A stretch of 20,849 nt of DNA from the IMG/VR virus record IMGVR_UViG_2778261244_000002, positions 1-20,849 of that record. One strand, given 5' to 3'. Within the stretch, counting starts at the first letter, position 1, and each line of letters starts with the position of its first letter. The position numbers and the translations under genes were made by a program. Positions 1 through 19,915 of this stretch are shown one piece after another. This DNA comes from a virus. Taxonomy: Duplodnaviria > Heunggongvirae > Uroviricota > Caudoviricetes. The notes under the pieces are model-generated. The model did not search any database, had not been told where the DNA came from, and worked only from the letters and a program-made list of their open reading frames with translations.

Positions 1-1053
1 TTACGGGGTAATGCCAACCGCTGCCGCCACTTTGTCGCCACTTGGCAGCGTTGCCAGAGGATTGAAACGGAGCGCCGTTTCCAGATGATCCGGTGCCAGA
101 TGTGCGTAACGCATAGTCATTTTTATATCGTGGTGTCCGAGAATTTTTTGTAAGGCCAGAATGTTTCCACCCGACATCATGAAGTGCGCCGCAAACGTAT
201 GGCGCAGAACGTGTGTGAGTTGACCGCGAGGGAGCACGATAGACGTTTTTTCCATCACGGATAAAAATTGAAAATAGCAGTCTGTGAAGAAATTGAACCC
301 ATCAAGCGCCATGATCTCTTCGTAAAGCTCTTTACTGATAGGGATGCTTCTGTTTTTCTTCCCCTTCGTTCTTACAAAGGTAATTCGGTATTTGGTCACC
401 TGTGAACGAGTAAGATTTACGGCTTCTCGCCAGCGTGCGCCTGTGCTTAAGCATATCTTAACTACCAGTGCCAGAATTGGGTCCTGACGTTTGCAATCAG
501 CCAGTAATTCAACAATCTGCTCATGGGTAAGCCATGCCATCTCTTTTTCTGCGATGGTGAATTTTCGCATGTTCTCCAGTGGGTTCGGATACGACCATTC
601 GCCCAGGCGGGATAGTTCGCTAAAAACACTACTTAGATAGCTTTGCTCCAGGTTGATGGTGACCGGGCTTGCTCCTTTCTTCCATTTCTCGCTGAAGTAG
701 ATCTCACCTGTCAGGCGTTTATCTCGATAGTGGGCAAACATTTTAGAGGTTAGATCAGTTGCAAGGGGATTGCCCAGAGCGTCAACCATCAGCAGCAATT
801 TGTCATAGACATGCTGCCCAGCTGTCAGTGATTTACCATGTAGTTTGAACCATAGCTCAACCACGTCTTTCAGGGTTCGACGATCCACTGATTCGCCCAG
901 CCAGGGCTTTGATTCGGTTTCTTCCATCGTGTGACGCTCAAAAGCCAGAGCTTCGCCTTTGGTGGCGAATTGTTTACGCACACGACGCCCACTTCGTCCG
1001 GCGGGGTAACATTCGCAAAGCCATTTCCCTGTGGTGAGTTTTCGTACTGCCAT
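1..1053 (-). CDS. int: Phage integrase, tyrosine recombinase (P2 Int-like)
   Basis: Translation carries the C-terminal tyrosine-recombinase motifs (HVLRHTFAAHFMMSGGNILALQKILGHHDIKMTMRYAHL) and overall resembles P2 Int. Start chosen at the internal ATG 1051-1053 (MAVRKLTTGKW...), preceded by a GGAGGG RBS; the track ORF reaching 1209 is judged an upstream over-extension. Stop at 1-3. Confidence 0.9.
   Translation of the reverse strand: MAVRKLTTGKWLCECYPAGRSGRRVRKQFATKGEALAFERHTMEETESKPWLGESVDRRTLKDVVELWFKLHGKSLTAGQHVYDKLLLMVDALGNPLATDLTSKMFAHYRDKRLTGEIYFSEKWKKGASPVTINLEQSYLSSVFSELSRLGEWSYPNPLENMRKFTIAEKEMAWLTHEQIVELLADCKRQDPILALVVKICLSTGARWREAVNLTRSQVTKYRITFVRTKGKKNRSIPISKELYEEIMALDGFNFFTDCYFQFLSVMEKTSIVLPRGQLTHVLRHTFAAHFMMSGGNILALQKILGHHDIKMTMRYAHLAPDHLETALRFNPLATLPSGDKVAAAVGITP
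20..41 (+). repeat. Candidate att core (attL copy) inside the 3' end of int
   Basis: Partner of the 17995-18016 repeat; lies within the last codons of int. Confidence 0.5.
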
Positions 1054-1084
1054 AAAAAATGCCCTCCAGTAGAGAGCATTTTTA

Positions 1085-1100
1085 CTGTATATATAACCAG
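1085..1100. promoter_or_regulatory. Candidate LexA box upstream of int
   Basis: CTGTATATATAACCAG (CTGT-N8-CCAG, AT-rich spacer) 32-47 nt upstream of the int ATG; one mismatch to the CTGT-N8-ACAG consensus. Confidence 0.35.
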
Positions 1101-1241
1101 TGTCAATGTATGAAATCCTACGACCATACATCTCACTGAAGCCATAATGAAGTTGGCTATTCTTTTTGCTATGTGAGCATGTAACTTTTGCGGTTAACCT
1201 GCGGCTCATTTTTATTTTAGACGCAGATATAAAAGCAAAAG

Positions 1242-1433
1242 TTATCGTGAGTTTTTAGTACAGATTTTTTTGGATTTACTAATAGTTCCATCATTGCAAA
1301 CGAATTTGCCATCTGAGGTACAGTGAGAAACACCTCCCTTTTTCCCTGAGCAGGGATAATTTCTAGCATAGGTAGTTAGTGGGTTTAATAACAAAGAACA
1401 TGACAAAACCACAAAAAATACCTTACCAAGCAT
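1242..1433 (-). CDS. Small secreted cysteine-rich, lysine-rich protein (63 aa), moron between cI and int
   Basis: Strong RBS (GGGAGGAAACTATG on the minus strand). N-terminal hydrophobic signal-peptide-like segment ([23 protein letters not shown]) followed by a 40-aa Lys-rich region with 4 Cys. Same orientation as cI and int with a 15-nt gap to the cI stop. Region looks AT-rich by eye. Confidence 0.6.
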
Positions 1434-1448
1434 AGTTTCCTCCCGGTA

Positions 1449-2105
1449 CTATTTAACATACTTGACTGTTAAACTTATAATTTTACCAATTATTTCAATG
1501 TCTTCTATCTTGCATTCGAAGGCTCTGTTTCCACCCTCGACGAAGATTCTTCCACCGGGTAAACGAGTAATGTCACGGATCGTTATTTCGCCATCAATAC
1601 TTATTACCCATTTACCATCACGTATATCATCAAATTCTTTATCACAAATAAATTCAGAATTGTTATCTGTGATGACAAAAGGTTTTTTAAACGTAGAGGG
1701 TAGAAATCCCTTATCAAAAATATAAAAACCGTCTTTCTGCAATGCTCCATCAGACAATAAATATTTTTCTACTTCTATAGTATTTGTATTTGCTGATGCT
1801 TGCTTTGAACCATGCCCTGTTGTTAGCCAATTAAGCGAGGTGCCCGTTTCAAGGGCGCACTGGATTACCCAATCTGCTGGAAAAATATCACGCATATAGC
1901 GCGTTGCCATGGTGCTCTTAGAAACACCTAAATGATCACAGAGAGCCTGACGGGTACCGAACCCATATGCTTCAACTAAACGTTCTATGGCTTTCTTACC
2001 GCCGCTATTGAAATCCACAAGTCCTCCAAAGAAATCCAAAATTCGTTGACAGATTCCAAAAGCGATCTTAAAGTTGAGCCAGAAGTGTTCTTTTGGAGCC
2101 TTCAC
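1449..2105 (-). CDS. cI: 186-type CI immunity repressor (HTH N-terminal domain)
   Basis: N-terminal segment (ERLVEAYGFGTRQALCDHLGVSKSTMATRYMRD...CALETGTSLNWLTTGHG) resembles 186 CI. Divergent from the apl/cII operon and upstream of int. The first in-frame start is GTG at 2103-2105; the true start is uncertain (internal GTG or TTG possible). Confidence 0.8.
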   Translation of the reverse strand: MKAPKEHFWLNFKIAFGICQRILDFFGGLVDFNSGGKKAIERLVEAYGFGTRQALCDHLGVSKSTMATRYMRDIFPADWVIQCALETGTSLNWLTTGHGSKQASANTNTIEVEKYLLSDGALQKDGFYIFDKGFLPSTFKKPFVITDNNSEFICDKEFDDIRDGKWVISIDGEITIRDITRLPGGRIFVEGGNRAFECKIEDIEIIGKIISLTVKYVK

Positions 2106-3982: not shown

Positions 3983-4281
3983 CAAGGGCAGTGCGTATCC
4001 ATCAATTAAAAATTGCACCTAAGTATTTCAACGCTGTGGTTGCAGGTCAAAAGACGGCTGAACTTCGTAAAGACGATCGTGGCTATAAAGTTGGTGATGT
4101 TCTTTCTCTTTGCGAATGGAAGCATGGCGTATTTACGGGTAGGGAATGGGCCGCTGTTATCTCTCATGTGCTTCCGGTTAATGACGTCATGGCAGTTTCA
4201 GAACAATGGGTGATGCTATCAATTCGCCCATTAACCCCATTAGAAGCTTTAGGATATGTTATTGCAGGAGGTGCTGTATGA
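3979..4281 (+). CDS. ASCH/DUF3850-like small protein
   Basis: ATG at 3979 overlaps the upstream stop (ATGA); translation [42 protein letters not shown] resembles PUA-like ASCH/DUF3850 proteins common in P2-like early operons. Confidence 0.55.
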
Positions 4282-5135
4282 GCACCATCCTGAAATGGGC
4301 GGGTAATAAAACTGCCATTATGTCCGAACTGAAAAAACATCTTCCTGCTGGCCCGCGACTGGTTGAACCTTTCGCGGGTTCCTGTGCTGTGATGATGGAG
4401 ACGGATTACCCCAGCTATCTTGTTGCGGATATTAATCCTGATTTAATCAACCTCTATAAAAAGGTTGCTGCTGATTGCGAGGCGTTTATATCTCGTGCCA
4501 GAGCTTTATTTGAGGAAGCAAACAGGGAGGTGGCTTATTACAACATAAGGCAGGAGTTTAATTACTCCACTGAAATTACTGATTTCATGAAAGCGGTATA
4601 TTTCCTGTATCTCAATCGTCATGGTTACCGTGGGTTATGTCGTTATAACAAGAGCGGGCATTTCAACATTCCATACGGTAATTATAAAAATCCGTATTTC
4701 CCTGAAAAAGAAATTCGCGCATTTGCAGAGAAAGCCCAGCGAGCAACGTTTATCTGCGCCAGCTTTGATGAAACGCTGGCGATGCTGCAGGTGGGGGATG
4801 TGGTGTATTGCGATCCGCCTTATGACGGTACGTTTTCCGGCTATCACACTGACGGCTTCACTGAAGATGACCAGTATCACCTGGCATCTGTTCTTGAATA
4901 TCGATCATCAGAAGGTCATCCAGTCATTGTTTCTAACAGTGACACATCCCTGATCCGTTCGCTGTATCGAAATTTCACTCACCACTACATCAAGGCAAAA
5001 CGCAGCATCGGCGTGTCGGCTGGCGAGAGTAAATCTGCAACAGAAATCATTGCTGTTTCCGGGGCGCGCTGCTGGGTGGGATTTGATCCTTCGTGTGGCG
5101 TAGATAGTTCTGCTGTGTACGAGGTGCGTGTATGA
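4278..5135 (+). CDS. dam: DNA adenine (N6) methyltransferase, Dam family
   Basis: N-terminal ILKWAGNK...EPFAGSCAV (AdoMet-binding motif) and catalytic DPPY ([12 protein letters not shown]); ATG at 4278 overlaps the upstream stop and its own stop overlaps the A start (ATGA). Confidence 0.85.
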
Positions 5136-8321: not shown

Positions 8322-8657
8322 TTACGAATGATCATTCTGTTTAGTCTTCATGAGAAAATCCCGAATCTTTGCCAAGTTTGAATTTTCGGGGATTGAATCC
8401 ATGTACGGATCACGCTCAAACACTAATTGCTCAGATTCAACGAAAGCCTGCCACTCTACTGGGTCTAGCTCAAATCCCATTGCTGTCATATCACTTTCAT
8501 CTTCCCCCTCGATCCAGTGGACTAAATAAAACAATTCATCATCAGGAGAATCATCCTCACCATCAACAATATCAACATCGGTTACAGTGATACGTAGGGT
8601 GGGATCGATTTTTGAGACATAAATTCCTAACTGTGGTATAGGGGGAATATTGTTCAT
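8322..8657 (-). CDS. Highly acidic hypothetical protein (111 aa)
   Basis: AAAGGAG RBS before the ATG at 8657; strongly acidic composition (GEDDSPDDE, EGEDESD); no recognised domain; oriented toward the dinI-like gene. Confidence 0.6.
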   Translation of the reverse strand: MNNIPPIPQLGIYVSKIDPTLRITVTDVDIVDGEDDSPDDELFYLVHWIEGEDESDMTAMGFELDPVEWQAFVESEQLVFERDPYMDSIPENSNLAKIRDFLMKTKQNDHS

Positions 8658-9136: not shown

Positions 9137-10534
9137 ATGAAGATGTATGAAGTAATTGATATATCAGCGCAGGAAATTAAGGCGTTGTTAAACACTGCTG
9201 AAGATCATTTCAATGATTTTAAAAGTAAGCAAATAGCGCCTAATAAATTACAAGAAACTTTTGTAGCATTTGCAAATGCTGATGGCGGTAATATTTATAT
9301 TGGCATAGAGGATGCAGCTTCGGGGAGAGAGCGTATATCTGGTTTCAATGAGCCAGAGGAAGCGAATGCTATTATTTCGACCTTATTGGAAAATACTAAT
9401 CCAGCTGTTGAGAATGTTGAGGTGGAATATTTAAGAACACCTTCCAATGGATTGATTTTACATGTGGATATACCAAAAAGCCCCAAAGTTCATTACACGG
9501 CCTCTGGCGATTGCTTTATAAGAGCTAACGCGCAAAAATTAAAAATAAAAGGTGAGCGAATTACTCAGCTTTCCTATTCTAAAGGCGCAGAACCTTATGA
9601 AAAAAAAGCAGTGGATATAGTTGAAGTAGAAGATATTCTTGAAAGTGAATATTATTCTGATTATTTACGTAGAATAGGAACGACTCAGTCACCGAGAGTT
9701 TTTTTAAAAAAACAACGACTGTTAACTAAGAAAGATGGTGAATTTGTCCCGAATGTAGGCTGTGTTTTACTATTTGATGAAGAGCCTCAAGGATGTTTAG
9801 ATACTCGATGTGCTGTAAAAGTATATCGGCTTAGAACAACTGAAGCAGAGTACAAACGTGAACAATTACAGGAAGATCCTGTAACGATTGAGGGGCCACT
9901 TGAAGTGGTTATTTTAAATACAATAGCAAAAGTAAAAGAATATGTTGATGGAGCATCATTCAAAGACGGCGAAAATCTAGTAAAACTTAGCTATCCTGCA
10001 GAAGCATTGAAGGAAATATTAGTTAATGCTGTTATTCATAGAGATTACAGCCAAAAGGATGATGTGCACGTAAAAGTTTATGACAACCGGATTGAAGTTC
10101 AAAGTCCAGGCAGATTGCCTGGATACATGACTATTAATAATTTATATGAAGAGCGGTTTTCTCGTAATCCAAATTTAGTGCGTTTGTTGCATAAACTTCC
10201 CAATCCAGTGAACCATGATATTGGTGAGGGGCTTGATACTGCAAAAAATGAATTGCGTAAGGCCGGGTTGGTAGCCCCGGTATTTGAAGAAAGGGGCAAT
10301 AATTTTGTTGTAATAGTTAAGCATCAAACAATAGCCTCAATTGAGGATGTGATTATTAATTATTTTAAAGAAAATCCAACGGGACAGCTCACAAATAAGT
10401 TGGTTAGACAATTAAGTGGCGAAGATGACCTTCAAAAGGTTAAAAAGGCATTGCAAAAGTTAAGGGAGGAGGGCGTAATAAAACCATTAGATCCTAACGC
10501 GAATCCTTTCAAATTTAAATATATTAAAGCTTAA
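9137..10534 (+). CDS. Schlafen-like AlbA_2 domain + HATPase_c_4-like domain + C-terminal wHTH protein (COG2865-type); candidate anti-phage cargo
   Basis: N-terminal EDHFNDFKS...ETFVAFANADGGNIYIGIED matches the AlbA_2/Schlafen-like signature; central LKEILVNAVIHRDYSQKDDVHVKVYDNRIEVQSPGRLPG matches HATPase_c_4; C-terminus looks like a winged HTH. AT-rich relative to flanks; followed by a hairpin terminator. The start may be the second ATG at 9143, which has better RBS spacing. Confidence 0.75.
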   Translation: MKMYEVIDISAQEIKALLNTAEDHFNDFKSKQIAPNKLQETFVAFANADGGNIYIGIEDAASGRERISGFNEPEEANAIISTLLENTNPAVENVEVEYLRTPSNGLILHVDIPKSPKVHYTASGDCFIRANAQKLKIKGERITQLSYSKGAEPYEKKAVDIVEVEDILESEYYSDYLRRIGTTQSPRVFLKKQRLLTKKDGEFVPNVGCVLLFDEEPQGCLDTRCAVKVYRLRTTEAEYKREQLQEDPVTIEGPLEVVILNTIAKVKEYVDGASFKDGENLVKLSYPAEALKEILVNAVIHRDYSQKDDVHVKVYDNRIEVQSPGRLPGYMTINNLYEERFSRNPNLVRLLHKLPNPVNHDIGEGLDTAKNELRKAGLVAPVFEERGNNFVVIVKHQTIASIEDVIINYFKENPTGQLTNKLVRQLSGEDDLQKVKKALQKLREEGVIKPLDPNANPFKFKYIKA

Positions 10535-10585: not shown

Positions 10586-11614
10586 TTATAGTTTATAGTG
10601 TTCGAAAGTTATTGCTTCTTCATTGATCCAATAGTTGAGATCTTGTAACTTCTTCTGAAGTGGCATCAGTTCATTCCGAACAAATACCCGGCTGGCCTTC
10701 TCCACATCCCCAAACCCTCCAACATTATTAGGCATAATCCCCATCATTTGCGGCGGCACGCGGTGCGCAGCCATCATGTCGTCGCGGCTGACATTTTTGA
10801 TATTCAGAAATTCATCCTTCGCCGCGACTTCTGATAACGGGATGATTTGAAGCCCGTCCTTTTTGCCGTTAGGCGAGTACATAAACAGATTGCGGAAGTT
10901 GCCTGGACCTTTGGCGCTTTTCATTGCGTTGCGGAGGTTGTTCACATCCTCCTGGTTCTGCGCGGCATCGGTCATGTACATGATGAAGCCTGCATGGCTG
11001 CCGTTGATGTAATACTTACGGCGGAACAGCGTGGCGGACTCGTTGAGCAGGGCTGACGGAATGGCAGAAAGATAGCCGGGCAGGCCGTAGATCTCCTGGT
11101 TAATGTCCGGTTCCATCAGATGAAAAATGCTGCCTTTCGTGAACTGATACGGCTGGGTTGTCATACCGTATTGCACAAACCAGTAGGTATCCAGGTCTAA
11201 CCCGCGTCGGGTGTATTTTGCCAGAGCAGGCTCAAGGGCGATAACTTCACCGAAGCGGTTCGTGCGTTTCTCCAGGTAGGCGTTACCAAATACCAGATAG
11301 TCCTGCACAAAACGTGAAAAAGCCTGCTGGCTGAGCAGCGGATGGGGGATGTAGGTACTGGTCAGAATGTTGCATTTCACCGCAATTGGTGAACTGTGAT
11401 GCACGGCGGCGCGGAAGGTGCGTGCCAGTCCGTCAAAGCTTACTGGCGGCTCATACCAGCGATCTGTCTGTACGCATTCCACATAGTCCAGTAGTTCGCG
11501 GCGGTCCAGAACAGGAACGGGATCACCGAAGCTGAATGCTTCGGCTGTAGTTTGACTTTTATGCTGGATCTGGTTCGTCGACGCAGCGCGGTTCTTCTTA
11601 CTCTTTCCCATCAA
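10586..11614 (-). CDS. Q: Portal (capsid) protein, P2 gpQ-like
   Basis: 342-aa protein of gpQ-like length, translationally coupled to the upstream P remnant (its start overlaps the P stop), in the P-Q leftward arrangement of P2. Confidence 0.85.
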   Translation of the reverse strand: MMGKSKKNRAASTNQIQHKSQTTAEAFSFGDPVPVLDRRELLDYVECVQTDRWYEPPVSFDGLARTFRAAVHHSSPIAVKCNILTSTYIPHPLLSQQAFSRFVQDYLVFGNAYLEKRTNRFGEVIALEPALAKYTRRGLDLDTYWFVQYGMTTQPYQFTKGSIFHLMEPDINQEIYGLPGYLSAIPSALLNESATLFRRKYYINGSHAGFIMYMTDAAQNQEDVNNLRNAMKSAKGPGNFRNLFMYSPNGKKDGLQIIPLSEVAAKDEFLNIKNVSRDDMMAAHRVPPQMMGIMPNNVGGFGDVEKASRVFVRNELMPLQKKLQDLNYWINEEAITFEHYKL

Positions 11615-12285
11615 AAAATCTCCACAATATTACTGGTATTGGCGGACTCGCCCTGCAGTGGTTCGTTAAACAGTGCGTGCATTGTTGCCCAGGCCAGATC
11701 GGCGTGGCTGGCTTCTTCGCTGCGGCTGGCTTCATAGGTCGGGCGGTTGCCGCTGGCGGTGGTGGCGCGACGGATTGCCATGAATGACTGCGCAATGTCG
11801 GTGTGCCCGGCGTCAAACTCCAGACGGCGGTGGCTGATAATGTCGTAGGCCTTGAGCACCAGGGCGTTTTTAACGTTGGGGTTGTAGACAAACTCCCGGA
11901 CGGCAGGAAAGAATGCTTTCACGTTCTCGTAAACCCCGTGACCAACGCCGGTTGAGTCGATACCGATATAAGTCACGTTGTACTGTTCGGTCAGTTTTTT
12001 GATGGCGTCAGCCTGAGCGCGGAAGTCCATCCCGCGCCACTGGTGACGCTCAAGAATGCGGAATTTACCGCCCGGTACGGCTGGCGGTGCCACCACCACG
12101 CATCCGGCACTGTCGCCGTTCTGAGTACCTTTTGCGGGGTCATAACCGATCCATACTTCGCGCCAGCCAAACGGGCGCAGGGCCAGTGCATGGAAGTCGG
12201 TCCAGATTTCCCAGCTGTCCACCATGCACGCCTGCAGTTCGCTGAGCGGGAACACGGACGCGAGATCGTCCACGAACTCGCACAT
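11611..12285 (-). pseudogene. P: Terminase large subunit (gpP-like), C-terminal nuclease-domain fragment only
   Basis: Only about 224-263 aa of an expected ~590-aa terminase remain (open frame reaches at most 12402); the sequence contains the RNaseH-like nuclease region (GYDPAKG...GIDSTGVGHGV) and lacks the N-terminal ATPase. Confidence 0.7.
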
Positions 12286-12545
12286 CAGCAGGTTCTGGTA
12301 TCCAGCGTGACGATACCGGGGAAGTGCAGGCCGTGGAGCTTGTCGTGCGTGGACGTCACAAAGAAGTGGATTCCGGCGAGTGGAAGACGGGCGAAAGCAA
12401 CACTACCAAAGTGACCAGTACCAACAGCTACGCGAAGCTGACCATCAATGGTGAGGTGCTCTATGAAGTGGACCTTATCAACATGGTGGAAATTGTGGAC
12501 GGTGTGGACCTGATGGAAGCGCACCGCAACGCCCTCGGCCTCTGA
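12246..12545 (+). pseudogene. Probable tail-tube (FII-like) C-terminal fragment
   Basis: Open frame without a credible start, ending 55 nt upstream of gene E; called on position (FII precedes E in P2) and tail-protein-like sequence (KLTINGEVLYEVDLINMVEIVDGVDL). Confidence 0.3.
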
Positions 12546-12902: not shown

Positions 12903-13036
12903 CGGTTGACGATCTGGTGGCAGATATCGCCACCATTTTTCACTGGCCGCCATCCGTTACTGACGTTATGCCGCTGACCGAAGTGCTGGAATGGCGGTAT
13001 AAAGCGATTCAGAGAAGCGGGGCCAACGATGAGTGA
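12600..13036 (+). CDS. E': gpE+E' -1 frameshift fusion product
   Basis: After a -1 slip at T_TTT_TTG (12857-12863) the -1 frame stays open to a TGA at 13034-13036, adding about 58 aa (...VEEVGACRFTDSLTVDDLVADIATIFHWPPSVTDVMPLTEVLEWRYKAIQRSGANDE) and overlapping the T start. Confidence 0.65.
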
Positions 13037-17685: not shown

Positions 17686-17775
17686 TTCTTCGCAATGGAG
17701 AACTTTTAAGTTTGCAAAATGGAATAATGCGGTATCATTATTGTGAATTTAGCAAAAATGGGGAGAACTCGAAAA

Positions 17776-17994
17776 ATGATGATTTGCCCACTGTGTGGAA
17801 GTGCCGCCCATACTCGCAGCAGTTTTCAGGTATCTTCATTGACCAAAGAGCGTTACAACCAGTGCCAGAACATTAACTGCAGCCATACTTTTGTTACCCA
17901 TGAAACTTTTGTTCGTTCGATTGCAACGCCAAAAGAGTCAAATCCGGTTCAGCCGCATCCAATGAAATCAGGACAGGTGGCGCTCTCTCTTTGA
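17776..17994 (+). CDS. ogr: Ogr/Delta-type zinc-finger late-gene transcriptional activator
   Basis: MMICPLCGSAAHTRSS...ERYNQCQNINCSHTF matches the Ogr C2-C2 zinc-finger pattern (CPLC...CQNxNC); the ATG at 17776 is preferred over the track start. Confidence 0.85.
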   Translation: MMICPLCGSAAHTRSSFQVSSLTKERYNQCQNINCSHTFVTHETFVRSIATPKESNPVQPHPMKSGQVALSL

Positions 17995-18016
17995 CGCTGC
18001 CGCCATTTTGTCGCCA
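17995..18016 (+). repeat. Candidate att core (attR copy) of a 22-nt direct repeat
   Basis: CGCTGCCGCCATTTTGTCGCCA directly after the ogr stop matches 20-41 (CGCTGCCGCCACTTTGTCGCCA) in 21 of 22 positions, same orientation. Confidence 0.5.
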
Positions 18017-18074
18017 TCGTAAAAAAACAGTGTTTCTAACATCATGATTTTAAACAGCTTAAATTTCAGGCAAC

Positions 18075-18117
18075 AAAAAACCCATCAACCTTGAACCGAA
18101 ATGGCGGGGTTGATGGG
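18075..18117 (-). terminator. Rho-independent terminator (minus strand), downstream of ybjL
   Basis: Perfect 10-bp inverted repeat CCCATCAACC / GGTTGATGGG with a 16-17-nt loop, followed on the minus strand by TTTTTT. Confidence 0.6.
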
Positions 18118-18229
18118 CTCCACAAAATGGGGACATCAAAGAAAAGCAGTGGCACTAATTAAGACTGATGCCCTGCGGAAAAGTTCTGCGGTTGTGCAAA
18201 AAAATTTCATTTTCAGGGCAACTTCAGTT

Positions 18230-19915
18230 TTATCCTAATCCTGGCCATACCATGACGATGATTGTCCCTGCCAGCGTCAGCAGGACGTTGGCGATTGCAT
18301 AGGTGCCCGCATAGCCCAGCGCCGGGATGTTACTGCGAGCTGTATCACTGATGATCTCCATTGCCGGCGCGCAGGTACGTGCGCCCATCATTGCGCCGAA
18401 CAACAGCGCGCGGTTCATTCGCAATACATAAGCACCGAACAAGAAACAGATAACCACGGGCACCAGACTGACAATCAATCCGGCAATCAACATCTGACCG
18501 CCAATCGCGCCCAGGCCGTTATTAATACCGCTACCGGCGCTCAGACCAACGCCTGCCATAAACACCATCAAGCCGAACTCTTTCACCATGCTTAATGCAC
18601 CCTGCGGAATGTAACCGAAGGTCGGGTGGTTAGCACGCATAAAGCCCAGCATAATTCCGGCGAATAACAACCCGGCAGCGTTCCCCATGCCGAAACTGAA
18701 TGTGCTGAACTGGAAGGTGATCATCCCGATCATCAGCCCAATAACAAAGAAGGCGCAGAATGCCAGCAGGTCAGTGACCTGGCTGTGAATCGAGATAAAG
18801 CCGATGCGATCGGCGATGGTTTTTACGCGGCGGGCATCGCCGCTGACTTGTAAAACGTCACCTTTGTTAAGCACGACGTTGTCATCTATCGGCATCTCAA
18901 TCTGGCTACGAATGACGCGGTTAAGGAAGCAACCGTGATCGGTCAACTTCAGTTGTGCGAGACGTTTACCTACAGCGTTATGGTTTTTAACGACCACTTC
19001 TTCAGTGACGATACGCATGTCGAGAAGGTCACGATCGAAAACTTCTTTACCGTTACGGAAGCTGGGATCGAGTCGGGCATGGGCGTCGGGATAGCCTACC
19101 AACGCTATTTCATCGCCCATTTGTAGCACGGCATCACCGTCTGGATTTGCCAGAATCCCGTTACGTCGAATACGTTCAATGTAGCAGCCGGTTTGTCGAT
19201 AAATACCCAGTTCACGCAGATTTTTGCCGTCGGTCCAGGCCACCAGTTCCGGGCCGACGCGATAGGCGCGGATCACCGGTAAATAAACCTTACGGTTGGC
19301 ATCAGTGTCCAGGCCACGTTCGCGGGCGATTTGCTGGGCGCTGGTCTGTAAGTCCTGATGCTGCAATTTCGGCAAGTAACGCGCACCAACAATCAAACTC
19401 ACCAGACCGATTAAATAGGTTAAGGCATACCCGAGGCTCAGATTATCCAGTGCCAGTGAGAGCTGCCTGCTTTCCATGCCGGAATGACGCAGTGTATCGC
19501 CAGCACCGACCAGAACCGGTGTCGACGTCATAGAGCCTGCTAACATACCGGCCGTCAGGCCAATATCCCAGCCAAACAGCTTACCTAACCCTAAGGCGAT
19601 CACCAGCGCACTGCCAACCATCACCAGTGCTAACATTAGGTAATTTTTCCCATCGCGAAAAAAAATGGAAAAAAAGTTCGGTCCGGCTTCGACCCCGACG
19701 CAGAAAATAAACAGCATAAAGCCAAGATTAAGCGCATCGGTGTTAATGCTGAAATGTTGTTGGCCTAATAACAGCGATACGACTAAAACGCCAATGGAAT
19801 TACCCAGTTGGATCGAACCAAGTCGTAACTTTCCGAGACATAGCCCAAGCGCGAGGACCACAAATAATAACAGAATGTAATTCCCATTTAACAATTCGGC
19901 GACGTTTATATTCAC
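18230..19915 (-). CDS. ybjL: Putative AAE-family transporter YbjL (TrkA-C domains)
   Basis: 561-aa membrane protein recognised as E. coli YbjL from its N-terminus ([24 protein letters not shown]...) and length. Confidence 0.85.

What the first reader, a model, noticed from the sequence alone, without database searches (positions are those of the whole stretch)
17995..18016. 22-nt imperfect direct repeat marking likely attL/attR, with the core inside the int 3' end
CGCTGCCGCCA(C/T)TTTGTCGCCA occurs at 20-41 (within the last codons of int) and at 17995-18016 (right after the ogr stop), in the same orientation. This fits att cores flanking the prophage, with host DNA (terminator, ybjL) beginning just after the right copy. 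It implies the int C-terminus is completed by host-derived sequence and that the integration site lies next to ybjL rather than at a P2 locI-type site.
Basis: seen in the sequence. Interest (0 to 1): 0.4.

Follow-up and report, generated by a model that had tools for sequence, protein, structure and literature searches.

The report
Integrase arm-binding sites, not att cores
The 22-base repeat is real, but it is the pair of integrase "arm" binding sites that flank the true 15-base attachment core of a 186/P2-family prophage inserted between rcdA and ybjL, a layout already described for this phage group and therefore ordinary.

Summary

It is not the crossover core. I compared an empty K-12-type site, three genomes identical to window 1-1500, and free phage genomes. 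The true core is CAACAAAAAACCCAT:
- attR core: window 18071-18085.
- attL core: 75-89 nt to the left of window position 1, so outside the window.

The core lies in the rcdA/ybjL intergenic terminator. The empty site lacks the 22-mer. The int stop codon and all of int are phage DNA.

Each 22-mer is two tandem 11-bp units (TGCCGCCAYTT, TGTCGCCAYYK). They match the published 186-type Int arm-site consensus (tgccGCCActt; YAYCGCCAYTY). In five independent attP sequences the units sit at identical offsets from the core (-74/-63 and +109/+120), although the spacers diverge to about 50% identity. IHF-like sites also keep fixed positions.

In E. coli HS prophage PhiECO1, published at this same site, the P' block is non-coding. 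Coding constraint therefore does not explain its conservation.

Verdict: known attP architecture. Low interest.

The parts
19..43 (+). P'-arm Int arm-type site pair. The two tandem 11-bp units are TGCCGCCACTT (22-32) and TGTCGCCACTT (33-43). The pair lies inside the last codons of int, encoding ...GDKVAAA... on the minus strand.
   Evidence: It starts 92 nt to the right of the attL core. The offsets (+109/+120) are the same in 5 independent attP sequences. The block is conserved as non-coding DNA in E. coli HS PhiECO1. It matches the published 186-type consensus.
1..1053 (-). int, a tyrosine integrase of 350 aa, 56% identical to phage 186 Int. The N-terminus carries the 186-type arm-binding discriminators W11, E14 and Y16. 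The C-terminal tail SGDKVAAAVGITP* reads through the P' arm sites.
   Evidence: The discriminator residues are from PMC3448106.
17776..17994 (+). ogr/B-type late-gene activator (Ogr_Delta zinc finger). It is the last prophage gene, and its stop codon abuts the P-arm sites.
17995..18019 (+). P-arm Int arm-type site pair. The units are TGCCGCCATTT (17998-18008) and TGTCGCCATCG (18009-18019).
   Evidence: It ends 54 nt to the left of the core. The offsets (-74/-63) are conserved in 5 attP sequences whose left flank and spacer have diverged. In strain 2c3, homology to the window resumes exactly at 17995.
18037..18049 (-). IHF-like site AATCATGATGTTA in the P-arm spacer (12/13 to WATCAANNNNTTR). 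This is a consensus match only.
   Evidence: A site sits at the same offset (-35, minus strand) in all 5 attP sequences, with a perfect match in two of them.
18071..18085 (+). True attR crossover core CAACAAAAAACCCAT, the right end of the prophage. The matching attL core lies 75-89 nt to the left of window position 1, outside the window.
   Evidence: Junction alignments of attB, attL and attR. It occurs once in the window. It is present once in the empty sites. It is present in intact attP in KP12, two IMG/VR contigs and ESSI2_ev129.
18071..18121 (-). Intrinsic terminator of ybjL. The hairpin is about 18077-18121 and the U-tract runs to 18071. The att core is the U-tract plus the descending stem, so attR keeps this terminator intact.
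   Evidence: -23.3 kcal/mol, z = -3.1. The sequence is identical in the empty K-12-type site.
18230..19915 (-). ybjL (aspartate:alanine antiporter), the first host gene to the right of the prophage.

Best explanation
The two 22-nt copies are the P-arm and P'-arm "arm-type" binding sites of the prophage's heterobivalent tyrosine integrase. Each is a tandem pair of 11-bp units of the phage-186 type. In the circular phage they flank the real 15-bp crossover core (CAACAAAAAACCCAT), 54 nt to its left and 92 nt to its right, in the same orientation.

Inferred mechanism, by analogy with 186, P2 and lambda: the small N-terminal domain of Int binds these units. IHF bends the spacers, which carry conserved IHF-like sites at -35, +34 and +53. 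The core-binding and catalytic domains then act on the core and on attB, which lies in the ybjL terminator between rcdA and ybjL.

After integration the P' pair ends up in attL, here inside the last codons of int. The P pair ends up in attR, just after ogr. A reader who sees only the prophage therefore finds a direct repeat near both ends.

Shown here: the positions of the core and junctions, the unit structure, the consensus match, the conserved geometry, and conservation independent of coding. Inferred: physical binding by Int and IHF.
For: 1. Junction mapping. attB equals attL up to the end of the core, and attB equals attR from the core onward. Only (C/T)AACAAAAAACCCAT is shared.
2. The reconstructed attP (ogr, 22-mer, core, 22-mer, int) is contiguous in free phage KP12 at 97% identity. 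It is also contiguous in two IMG/VR contigs and in ESSI2_ev129.
3. The units TGCCGCCACTT and TGTCGCCACTT match the published 186-type arm consensus tgccGCCActt (PMC3448106). They also match the phage 186 GenBank annotation YAYCGCCAYTY, 'predicted Int arm-type recognition sequences' (sequence).
4. There are four units against 0.25 expected by chance, all at the two arms.
5. Offsets from the core are identical (-74/-63, +109/+120) in five attP sequences. Against the most divergent one (ESSI2_ev129), the flanks and spacers fall to 26/54 and 15/40 identity. The 22-mers stay at 17-22/22 across all four comparisons.
6. In E. coli HS PhiECO1 the P' block is conserved but non-coding.
7. Int is 56% identical to 186 Int. 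Its N-terminal arm-binding segment is conserved and has W11, E14 and Y16.
8. The P2-type arm motif TGTGGACA is absent from the window.
Against: No binding data exist for this phage. Even the phage 186 sites are annotated as 'predicted'. The left flank of this particular window's genome could not be read, because its source is not in the complete-genome set. The attL position is therefore taken from three genomes that are 100% identical over window 1-1500 and from free phage relatives. The fourth unit (TGTCGCCATCG) departs from the consensus at its 3' end. IHF sites are weak consensus matches only.
Confidence: 0.9

Rival explanations
1. One reading: the 22-mers are the attL/attR crossover cores, so host DNA starts at 18017 and the int 3' end is host-derived.
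For: The repeat is a direct repeat near both ends of the prophage and is highly non-random.
Against: The empty site has no copy of the 22-mer, even with 3 mismatches. Homology of empty-site genomes to the window starts at about 18060-18072, not at 18017. Positions 18017-18070 and the 92 nt to the left of the left copy are contiguous phage DNA in free phage genomes. rcdA is intact 104 nt away from the int stop codon.
Confidence: 0.01
2. The similarity is a passive by-product with no site function. It would be either a duplicated scrap of the int 3' end or conservation due to Int protein coding.
For: The left copy is inside the int ORF in the window, in KP12 and in ESSI2_ev129. The encoded tail GDK(V/M)AAAV is similar in ev129.
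Against: The right copy is always non-coding. In E. coli HS the left block is non-coding too, yet identical. The tail lies beyond the conserved end of the catalytic domain, since 186 Int stops 7 residues after the aligned NPL. Both copies keep exact offsets from the core while the neighbouring DNA diverges.
Confidence: 0.04
3. The repeats bind a different protein, such as the Apl/Cox excisionase, the CI repressor or a host factor, rather than Int.
For: In phage 186, Apl binds a cluster of sites between the core and the P' arm units, so several proteins bind in this region.
Against: The unit sequence matches the Int arm consensus of 186, not the neighbouring Apl region. The units occur on both arms. 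In 186 the Apl sites at attP are on one side only. The motif co-varies with the Int N-terminal type (P2 type versus 186 type) according to PMC3448106.
Confidence: 0.05

Closest known systems
Phage 186 attP: Int arm-type recognition sequences (GenBank NC_001317 feature 20889-21147, consensus YAYCGCCAYTY)
   Same: The same 11-bp unit built around CGCCA. The units are in tandem at an 11-bp period and in the same orientation on both sides of the core. IHF sites lie between the arms and the core. Int is 56% identical with a conserved N-terminus. The gene order ogr/B - attP - int - cI is the same.
   Different: 186 has 3 + 2 (or 3) units, including an inverted one; here there are 2 + 2. The 186 core is 36 nt inside tRNA-Ile (ileY); here it is 15 nt in an intergenic terminator. 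186 has orf69 between attP and int; here int runs through the P' units.
Prophages PhiECO1 (E. coli HS), PhiECO2, PhiECO3 (CFT073) and PhiSEN1, from Nilsson, Cardoso-Palacios & Haggard-Ljungquist 2011 (PMC3448106)
   Same: The integration site is the same. PhiECO1 starts 17 nt after the rcdA stop codon, with the same core and a P' arm block that is identical over the 22-mer and differs at only a few bases elsewhere. The regulatory region is 186-type (CI, CII). That paper reports 186-type arm repeats for this group.
   Different: PhiECO1 carries an extra 270-nt ORF between the P' arm and int, so its arm sites are non-coding. The window's prophage is an 18-kb deletion remnant. Fig. S4 of the paper could not be read, so I could not confirm that it lists the same units.
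Phage P2 attP arm sites (direct repeats, consensus TGTGGACA)
   Same: The architecture is the same: two direct repeats on each arm flanking a short core, with int next to attP and ogr on the other side (PMC3448106).
   Different: The motif is different. TGTGGACA is absent from the window. The Int N-terminal discriminators are Y/D/R in P2 and W/E/Y here. P2 uses other attB sites, such as locI.
Lambda attP arm-type sites P1, P2, P'1-P'3 (own knowledge)
   Same: Works the same way in principle: a heterobivalent Int bridges arm and core sites, with IHF-induced bends, and attB lacks arm sites.
   Different: The site sequence, number and spacing are unrelated, and so are the excisionase and the core.

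Membership tests
att crossover core (attL/attR common core) | The repeat lies exactly at the host/prophage junctions, with host DNA immediately outside it. | tested here: not met
   Phage DNA continues 54 nt beyond the right copy and 92 nt beyond the left copy. The junctions are at CAACAAAAAACCCAT.
att crossover core (attL/attR common core) | A single copy is present at the unoccupied site (attB). | tested here: not met
   No match with up to 3 mismatches in the empty K-12-type locus. The 15-mer core is present there once, with T in place of C at its first base.
Arm-type Int binding sites of 186-type P2-family attP | The sites lie in the attP arms on both sides of the core, outside the sequence shared with attB. 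| tested here: met
   Offsets -74/-63 and +109/+120 from the core in intact attP sequences of free phages.
Arm-type Int binding sites of 186-type P2-family attP | At least two direct repeats per arm matching the consensus tgccGCCActt / YAYCGCCAYTY. | tested here: met
   TGCCGCCACTT, TGTCGCCACTT, TGCCGCCATTT and TGTCGCCATCG. Four hits against 0.25 expected.
Arm-type Int binding sites of 186-type P2-family attP | The cognate integrase has the 186-type N-terminal arm-binding domain (W, E, Y discriminators). | tested here: met
   MAVRKLTTGKWLCECY... has W11, E14 and Y16, aligned to the same residues of 186 Int; overall identity 56% (criterion).
Arm-type Int binding sites of 186-type P2-family attP | Conservation is independent of the surrounding sequence and of coding status. 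| tested here: met
   The 22-mers keep 17-22/22 identity where the flanks fall to 11-15/40 and the P spacer to 26-29/54. The P' block is non-coding in E. coli HS.
Arm-type Int binding sites of 186-type P2-family attP | The Int N-terminal domain physically binds the sites, and they are required for recombination. | not testable with these tools
   This needs footprinting or EMSA and attP mutagenesis. The 186 sites themselves are labelled 'predicted'.

The most novel reading that the evidence does not exclude
In this lineage the int ORF runs through the P' arm sites. Int bound there in attL or attP could act as a roadblock on its own transcript or affect its 3' end, giving a 3'-end form of integrase autoregulation. 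The last 13 codons of int would then be constrained by a DNA-binding site rather than by protein function. Nothing here tests this. It is merely not excluded.
Probability: 0.07. Interest if true: 0.3.

Novelty: already known. Interest (0 to 1): 0.1.

Why it matters
The result matters mainly for annotation. A direct repeat near both ends of a prophage is not necessarily the att core. Taking it as the core here would misplace the prophage boundary by about 55-70 nt on the right and about 110 nt on the left. It would also invent a host-completed integrase.

The correct map is: core in the ybjL terminator, arm pairs at fixed offsets, IHF-like sites between them. It gives exact boundaries for a prophage family that occupies this site in at least about 20% of complete E. 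coli genomes (1115 of 5419). It also gives a ready-made minimal attP of about 220 bp if anyone wants this integrase as a tool.

Tried and rejected
- Finding the window's own genome to read its left flank. The best complete E. coli genome covers only 86% of the window at 95.7% identity.
- Exact-protein look-up of the 465-aa cargo gene. It returned related full-length prophages with a different immunity region, not the source.
- Reading Fig. S4 and the supplement of PMC3448106 to compare the listed PhiECO1 arm repeats. It is not held.
Folding showed the hairpin instead.
- A resemblance of the 22-mer to the rcdA 3' end (L001 1417-1436). I rejected it as chance: 17 of 300 shuffles score as well.
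- An extra consensus hit at 12989-12999 (minus strand), inside the tail chaperone region. It is a single hit, compatible with the 0.55 expected by chance.
- The literature search on 'ybjL' with 'P2-like' found no paper naming ybjL. The site is published under the prophage name PhiECO1 instead.

Full report
**Observation**

The 22-mer CGCTGCCGCCAYTTTGTCGCCA occurs twice in the window, at 19-40 and 17995-18016, both on the + strand and 21/22 identical. Shuffled sequence gave no match, even allowing three mismatches (family D20).

The left copy lies in the last codons of int (1-1053, minus strand, stop at 1-3). The right copy begins on the base after the ogr stop codon (ogr = 17776-17994).

**Where the prophage really ends**

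I searched window 17700-18700 against 5,426 complete E. coli genomes. 1115 genomes carry ogr next to ybjL. In most genomes without the prophage, homology starts only at window ~18060-18072, not at 18017.

In a K-12-type empty site, rcdA ends and 15 nt later comes TAACAAAAAACCCAT. That sequence runs into a hairpin and then ybjL (a second empty site).

Three genomes are 100% identical to window 1-1500. In them rcdA is intact, and 104 nt separate its stop codon from the int stop codon.

Base-by-base comparison gives a clean answer:
- attB and attL are identical up to the end of CAACAAAAAACCCAT, apart from the C/T first base of the core, and unrelated after it.
- attB and attR are unrelated before it and identical from it onward.

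The crossover core is therefore this 14-15-mer:
- attR core: window 18071-18085, the only copy in the window.
- attL core: 75-89 nt to the left of window position 1, so outside the window.

The empty site holds no copy of the 22-mer.

**Confirmation from free phage genomes**

I joined the attR phage side to the attL phage side to reconstruct attP. This attP is contiguous, at 97.2% identity over its whole length, in Klebsiella phage KP12.

A pattern requiring two arm copies 150-180 nt apart found two further intact attP sequences in IMG/VR. Escherichia phage ESSI2_ev129 has a more divergent one.

It follows that window 18017-18070 and the 92 nt to the left of the left copy are phage DNA. The int stop codon and the whole int ORF are phage-encoded. 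Nothing in int comes from the host.

**What the repeats are**

Each 22-mer is two tandem 11-bp units:
- TGCCGCCACTT (22-32) and TGTCGCCACTT (33-43).
- TGCCGCCATTT (17998-18008) and TGTCGCCATCG (18009-18019).

That is four hits against 0.25 expected by chance, all at the two arms.

Nilsson et al. [quoted passage not shown] They describe two types: P2-type (tgTGGaCa) and 186-type (tgccGCCActt). The 186-type consensus is literally the unit found here.

The GenBank record of phage 186 annotates 'predicted Int arm-type recognition sequences; consensus YAYCGCCAYTY; 3 sites to left of attP and 2 sites to right'. The 186 sequence shows the same tandem 11-bp arrangement.

The window's Int fits this type:
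- It is 56% identical to 186 Int, with a well conserved N-terminal segment.
- It has W11, E14 and Y16, the residues the 2011 paper proposes as 186-type discriminators, against Y, D and R in P2.
- The regulatory region is 186-type: CI with both CI domains, and CII/CP76.
- The P2-type motif TGTGGACA is absent from the window.

**Conserved geometry**

I aligned five independent attP sequences: window+L005, KP12, two IMG/VR contigs and ESSI2_ev129. The arm units lie at exactly -74/-63 and +109/+120 relative to the first A of AACAAAAAACCCAT.

Against the two divergent attP sequences (L012, ESSI2_ev129), conservation is as follows:

| Region | Identity to the window attP |
|---|---|
| Left flank | 11-15/40 |
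| P-arm 22-mer | 17-21/22 |
| P spacer | 26-29/54 |
| Core | 15/15 |
| P' spacer | 57-74/92 |
| P'-arm 22-mer | 21-22/22 |

IHF-like sites (WATCAANNNNTTR, at most 1 mismatch) sit at the same three offsets in all five sequences: -35 on the minus strand, +34 and +53. The -35 site, which falls at window 18037-18049, is a perfect match in two of them. These are consensus matches, not proof of binding.

In strain 2c3 an extra gene sits after ogr. Homology to the window resumes exactly at 17995, the first base of the P-arm 22-mer.

**Conservation is not explained by coding**

In E. coli HS the published prophage PhiECO1 starts 17 nt after the rcdA stop codon, so it uses the same site. There the block ATTACGGGGTAATGCCAACCGCTGCCGCCACTTTGTCGCCACTT is conserved, but a 270-nt ORF follows it. 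The HS int ends elsewhere with a different tail (...ATLPTSIASF*), so the arm block is non-coding.

In the window, KP12 and ESSI2_ev129 the int ORF instead runs through the arm units, giving the tail ...ATLPSGDKVAAAVGITP*. This tail lies beyond the conserved end of the catalytic domain, since 186 Int stops 7 residues after the aligned NPL. But that DNA is phage arm DNA, not host DNA.

**The core and terminators**

On the minus strand, the attR core is the U-tract plus the descending stem of the ybjL intrinsic terminator (-23.3 kcal/mol, z = -3.1). attR therefore preserves that terminator.

On the phage side, the same core is the U-tract and stem of a terminator-like hairpin that follows int: AACCCGTTTACATAAATGGGTT TTTTGTTG. 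This hairpin ends up in attL.

The exact strand-exchange points within the 15-mer are not resolved. The first position is C in the phage and in this attL, but T in K-12 attB and in the HS attL.

**Mechanism**

Shown here: the junctions, the core, the unit structure, the consensus match, the fixed offsets, and conservation independent of coding.

Inferred from the 186, P2 and lambda paradigms: the Int N-terminal domain binds the four units, IHF bends the spacers, and Int bridges the arms to the core and attB for integration. The attL and attR arms, together with the Apl-like excisionase, direct excision. No binding experiment exists for this phage, and even the 186 sites are annotated as predicted.

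**Limits**

The window's own genome is not in the complete-genome collection (best cover 86%). The attL position therefore rests on three genomes identical over window 1-1500, on E. coli HS and on free phages. Fig. S4 of the 2011 paper was not readable.

**Novelty and verdict**

This is the standard attP architecture of 186-type P2-family phages, at an integration site already catalogued as PhiECO1, PhiECO2, PhiECO3 and PhiSEN1. It is already known. Its value is in correcting the prophage boundary and the interpretation.

Interest is 0.1. Confidence in the arm-site reading is 0.9.

Noticed in passing
window 12299-12301: The prophage is a defective ~18-kb remnant. DNA to the left matches a related prophage up to mid-terminase (only the Terminase_6C part, 11611-12285, survives). 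DNA to the right resumes in the 3' part of the tail-tube gene. Capsid, lysis, baseplate, tail-fibre and sheath genes are deleted.
   Followed up: partly
window 9137-10534 (+) and 8322-8657 (-): There is a cargo gene between the replication region and the portal gene: a 465-aa protein with SLFN_AlbA_2 and HATPase_c_4 domains. Beside it is a 111-aa ORF that is DUF8087 in relatives. The position matches the P2-family cargo hotspot, so it may be an anti-phage defence candidate. The same protein occurs in full-length prophages L014 and L015.
   Followed up: partly
L001 1417-1436 (rcdA 3' end, about 75-95 nt to the left of attB): rcdA contains TGACGCTGCATTTTGTCACC, which resembles the arm 22-mer with a 2-3-nt gap. 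17 of 300 shuffles of the locus score as well, so it is probably chance.
   Followed up: yes
L002 2447-2809; L013 377-994: Relatives carry different extra genes between ogr and the P-arm sites: a 120-aa hypothetical protein in strain 2c3 and a serine acetyltransferase in ESSI2_ev129. This suggests a cargo slot bounded exactly by the arm-site pair.
   Followed up: no
L012, +79 from the core (minus strand); equivalent to about 10-20 nt to the left of window position 1: One IMG/VR attP has an inverted arm-like unit AATCGCCACTC between the core and the P' pair. The window lineage has a degenerate GGTGGTTAT there. It may be a third, inverted P' site like the one in phage 186.
   Followed up: no
first core base: window 18071; L005 2912; L001 1512; L010 ~1311: The first core position is C in attR, in attP and in the attL of the genomes identical to the window. 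It is T in K-12 attB and in the E. coli HS attL. This is either a host polymorphism or a hint about where strand exchange occurs.
   Followed up: no
window 12989-12999 (-): A lone match to the arm consensus (TACCGCCATTC) lies inside the tail chaperone/gpE' region. It is compatible with the chance expectation of 0.55 per window.
   Followed up: yes
window 4206-5135 (+): The early operon, upstream of the gene A replication protein, encodes a D12-class N6-adenine DNA methyltransferase.
   Followed up: no
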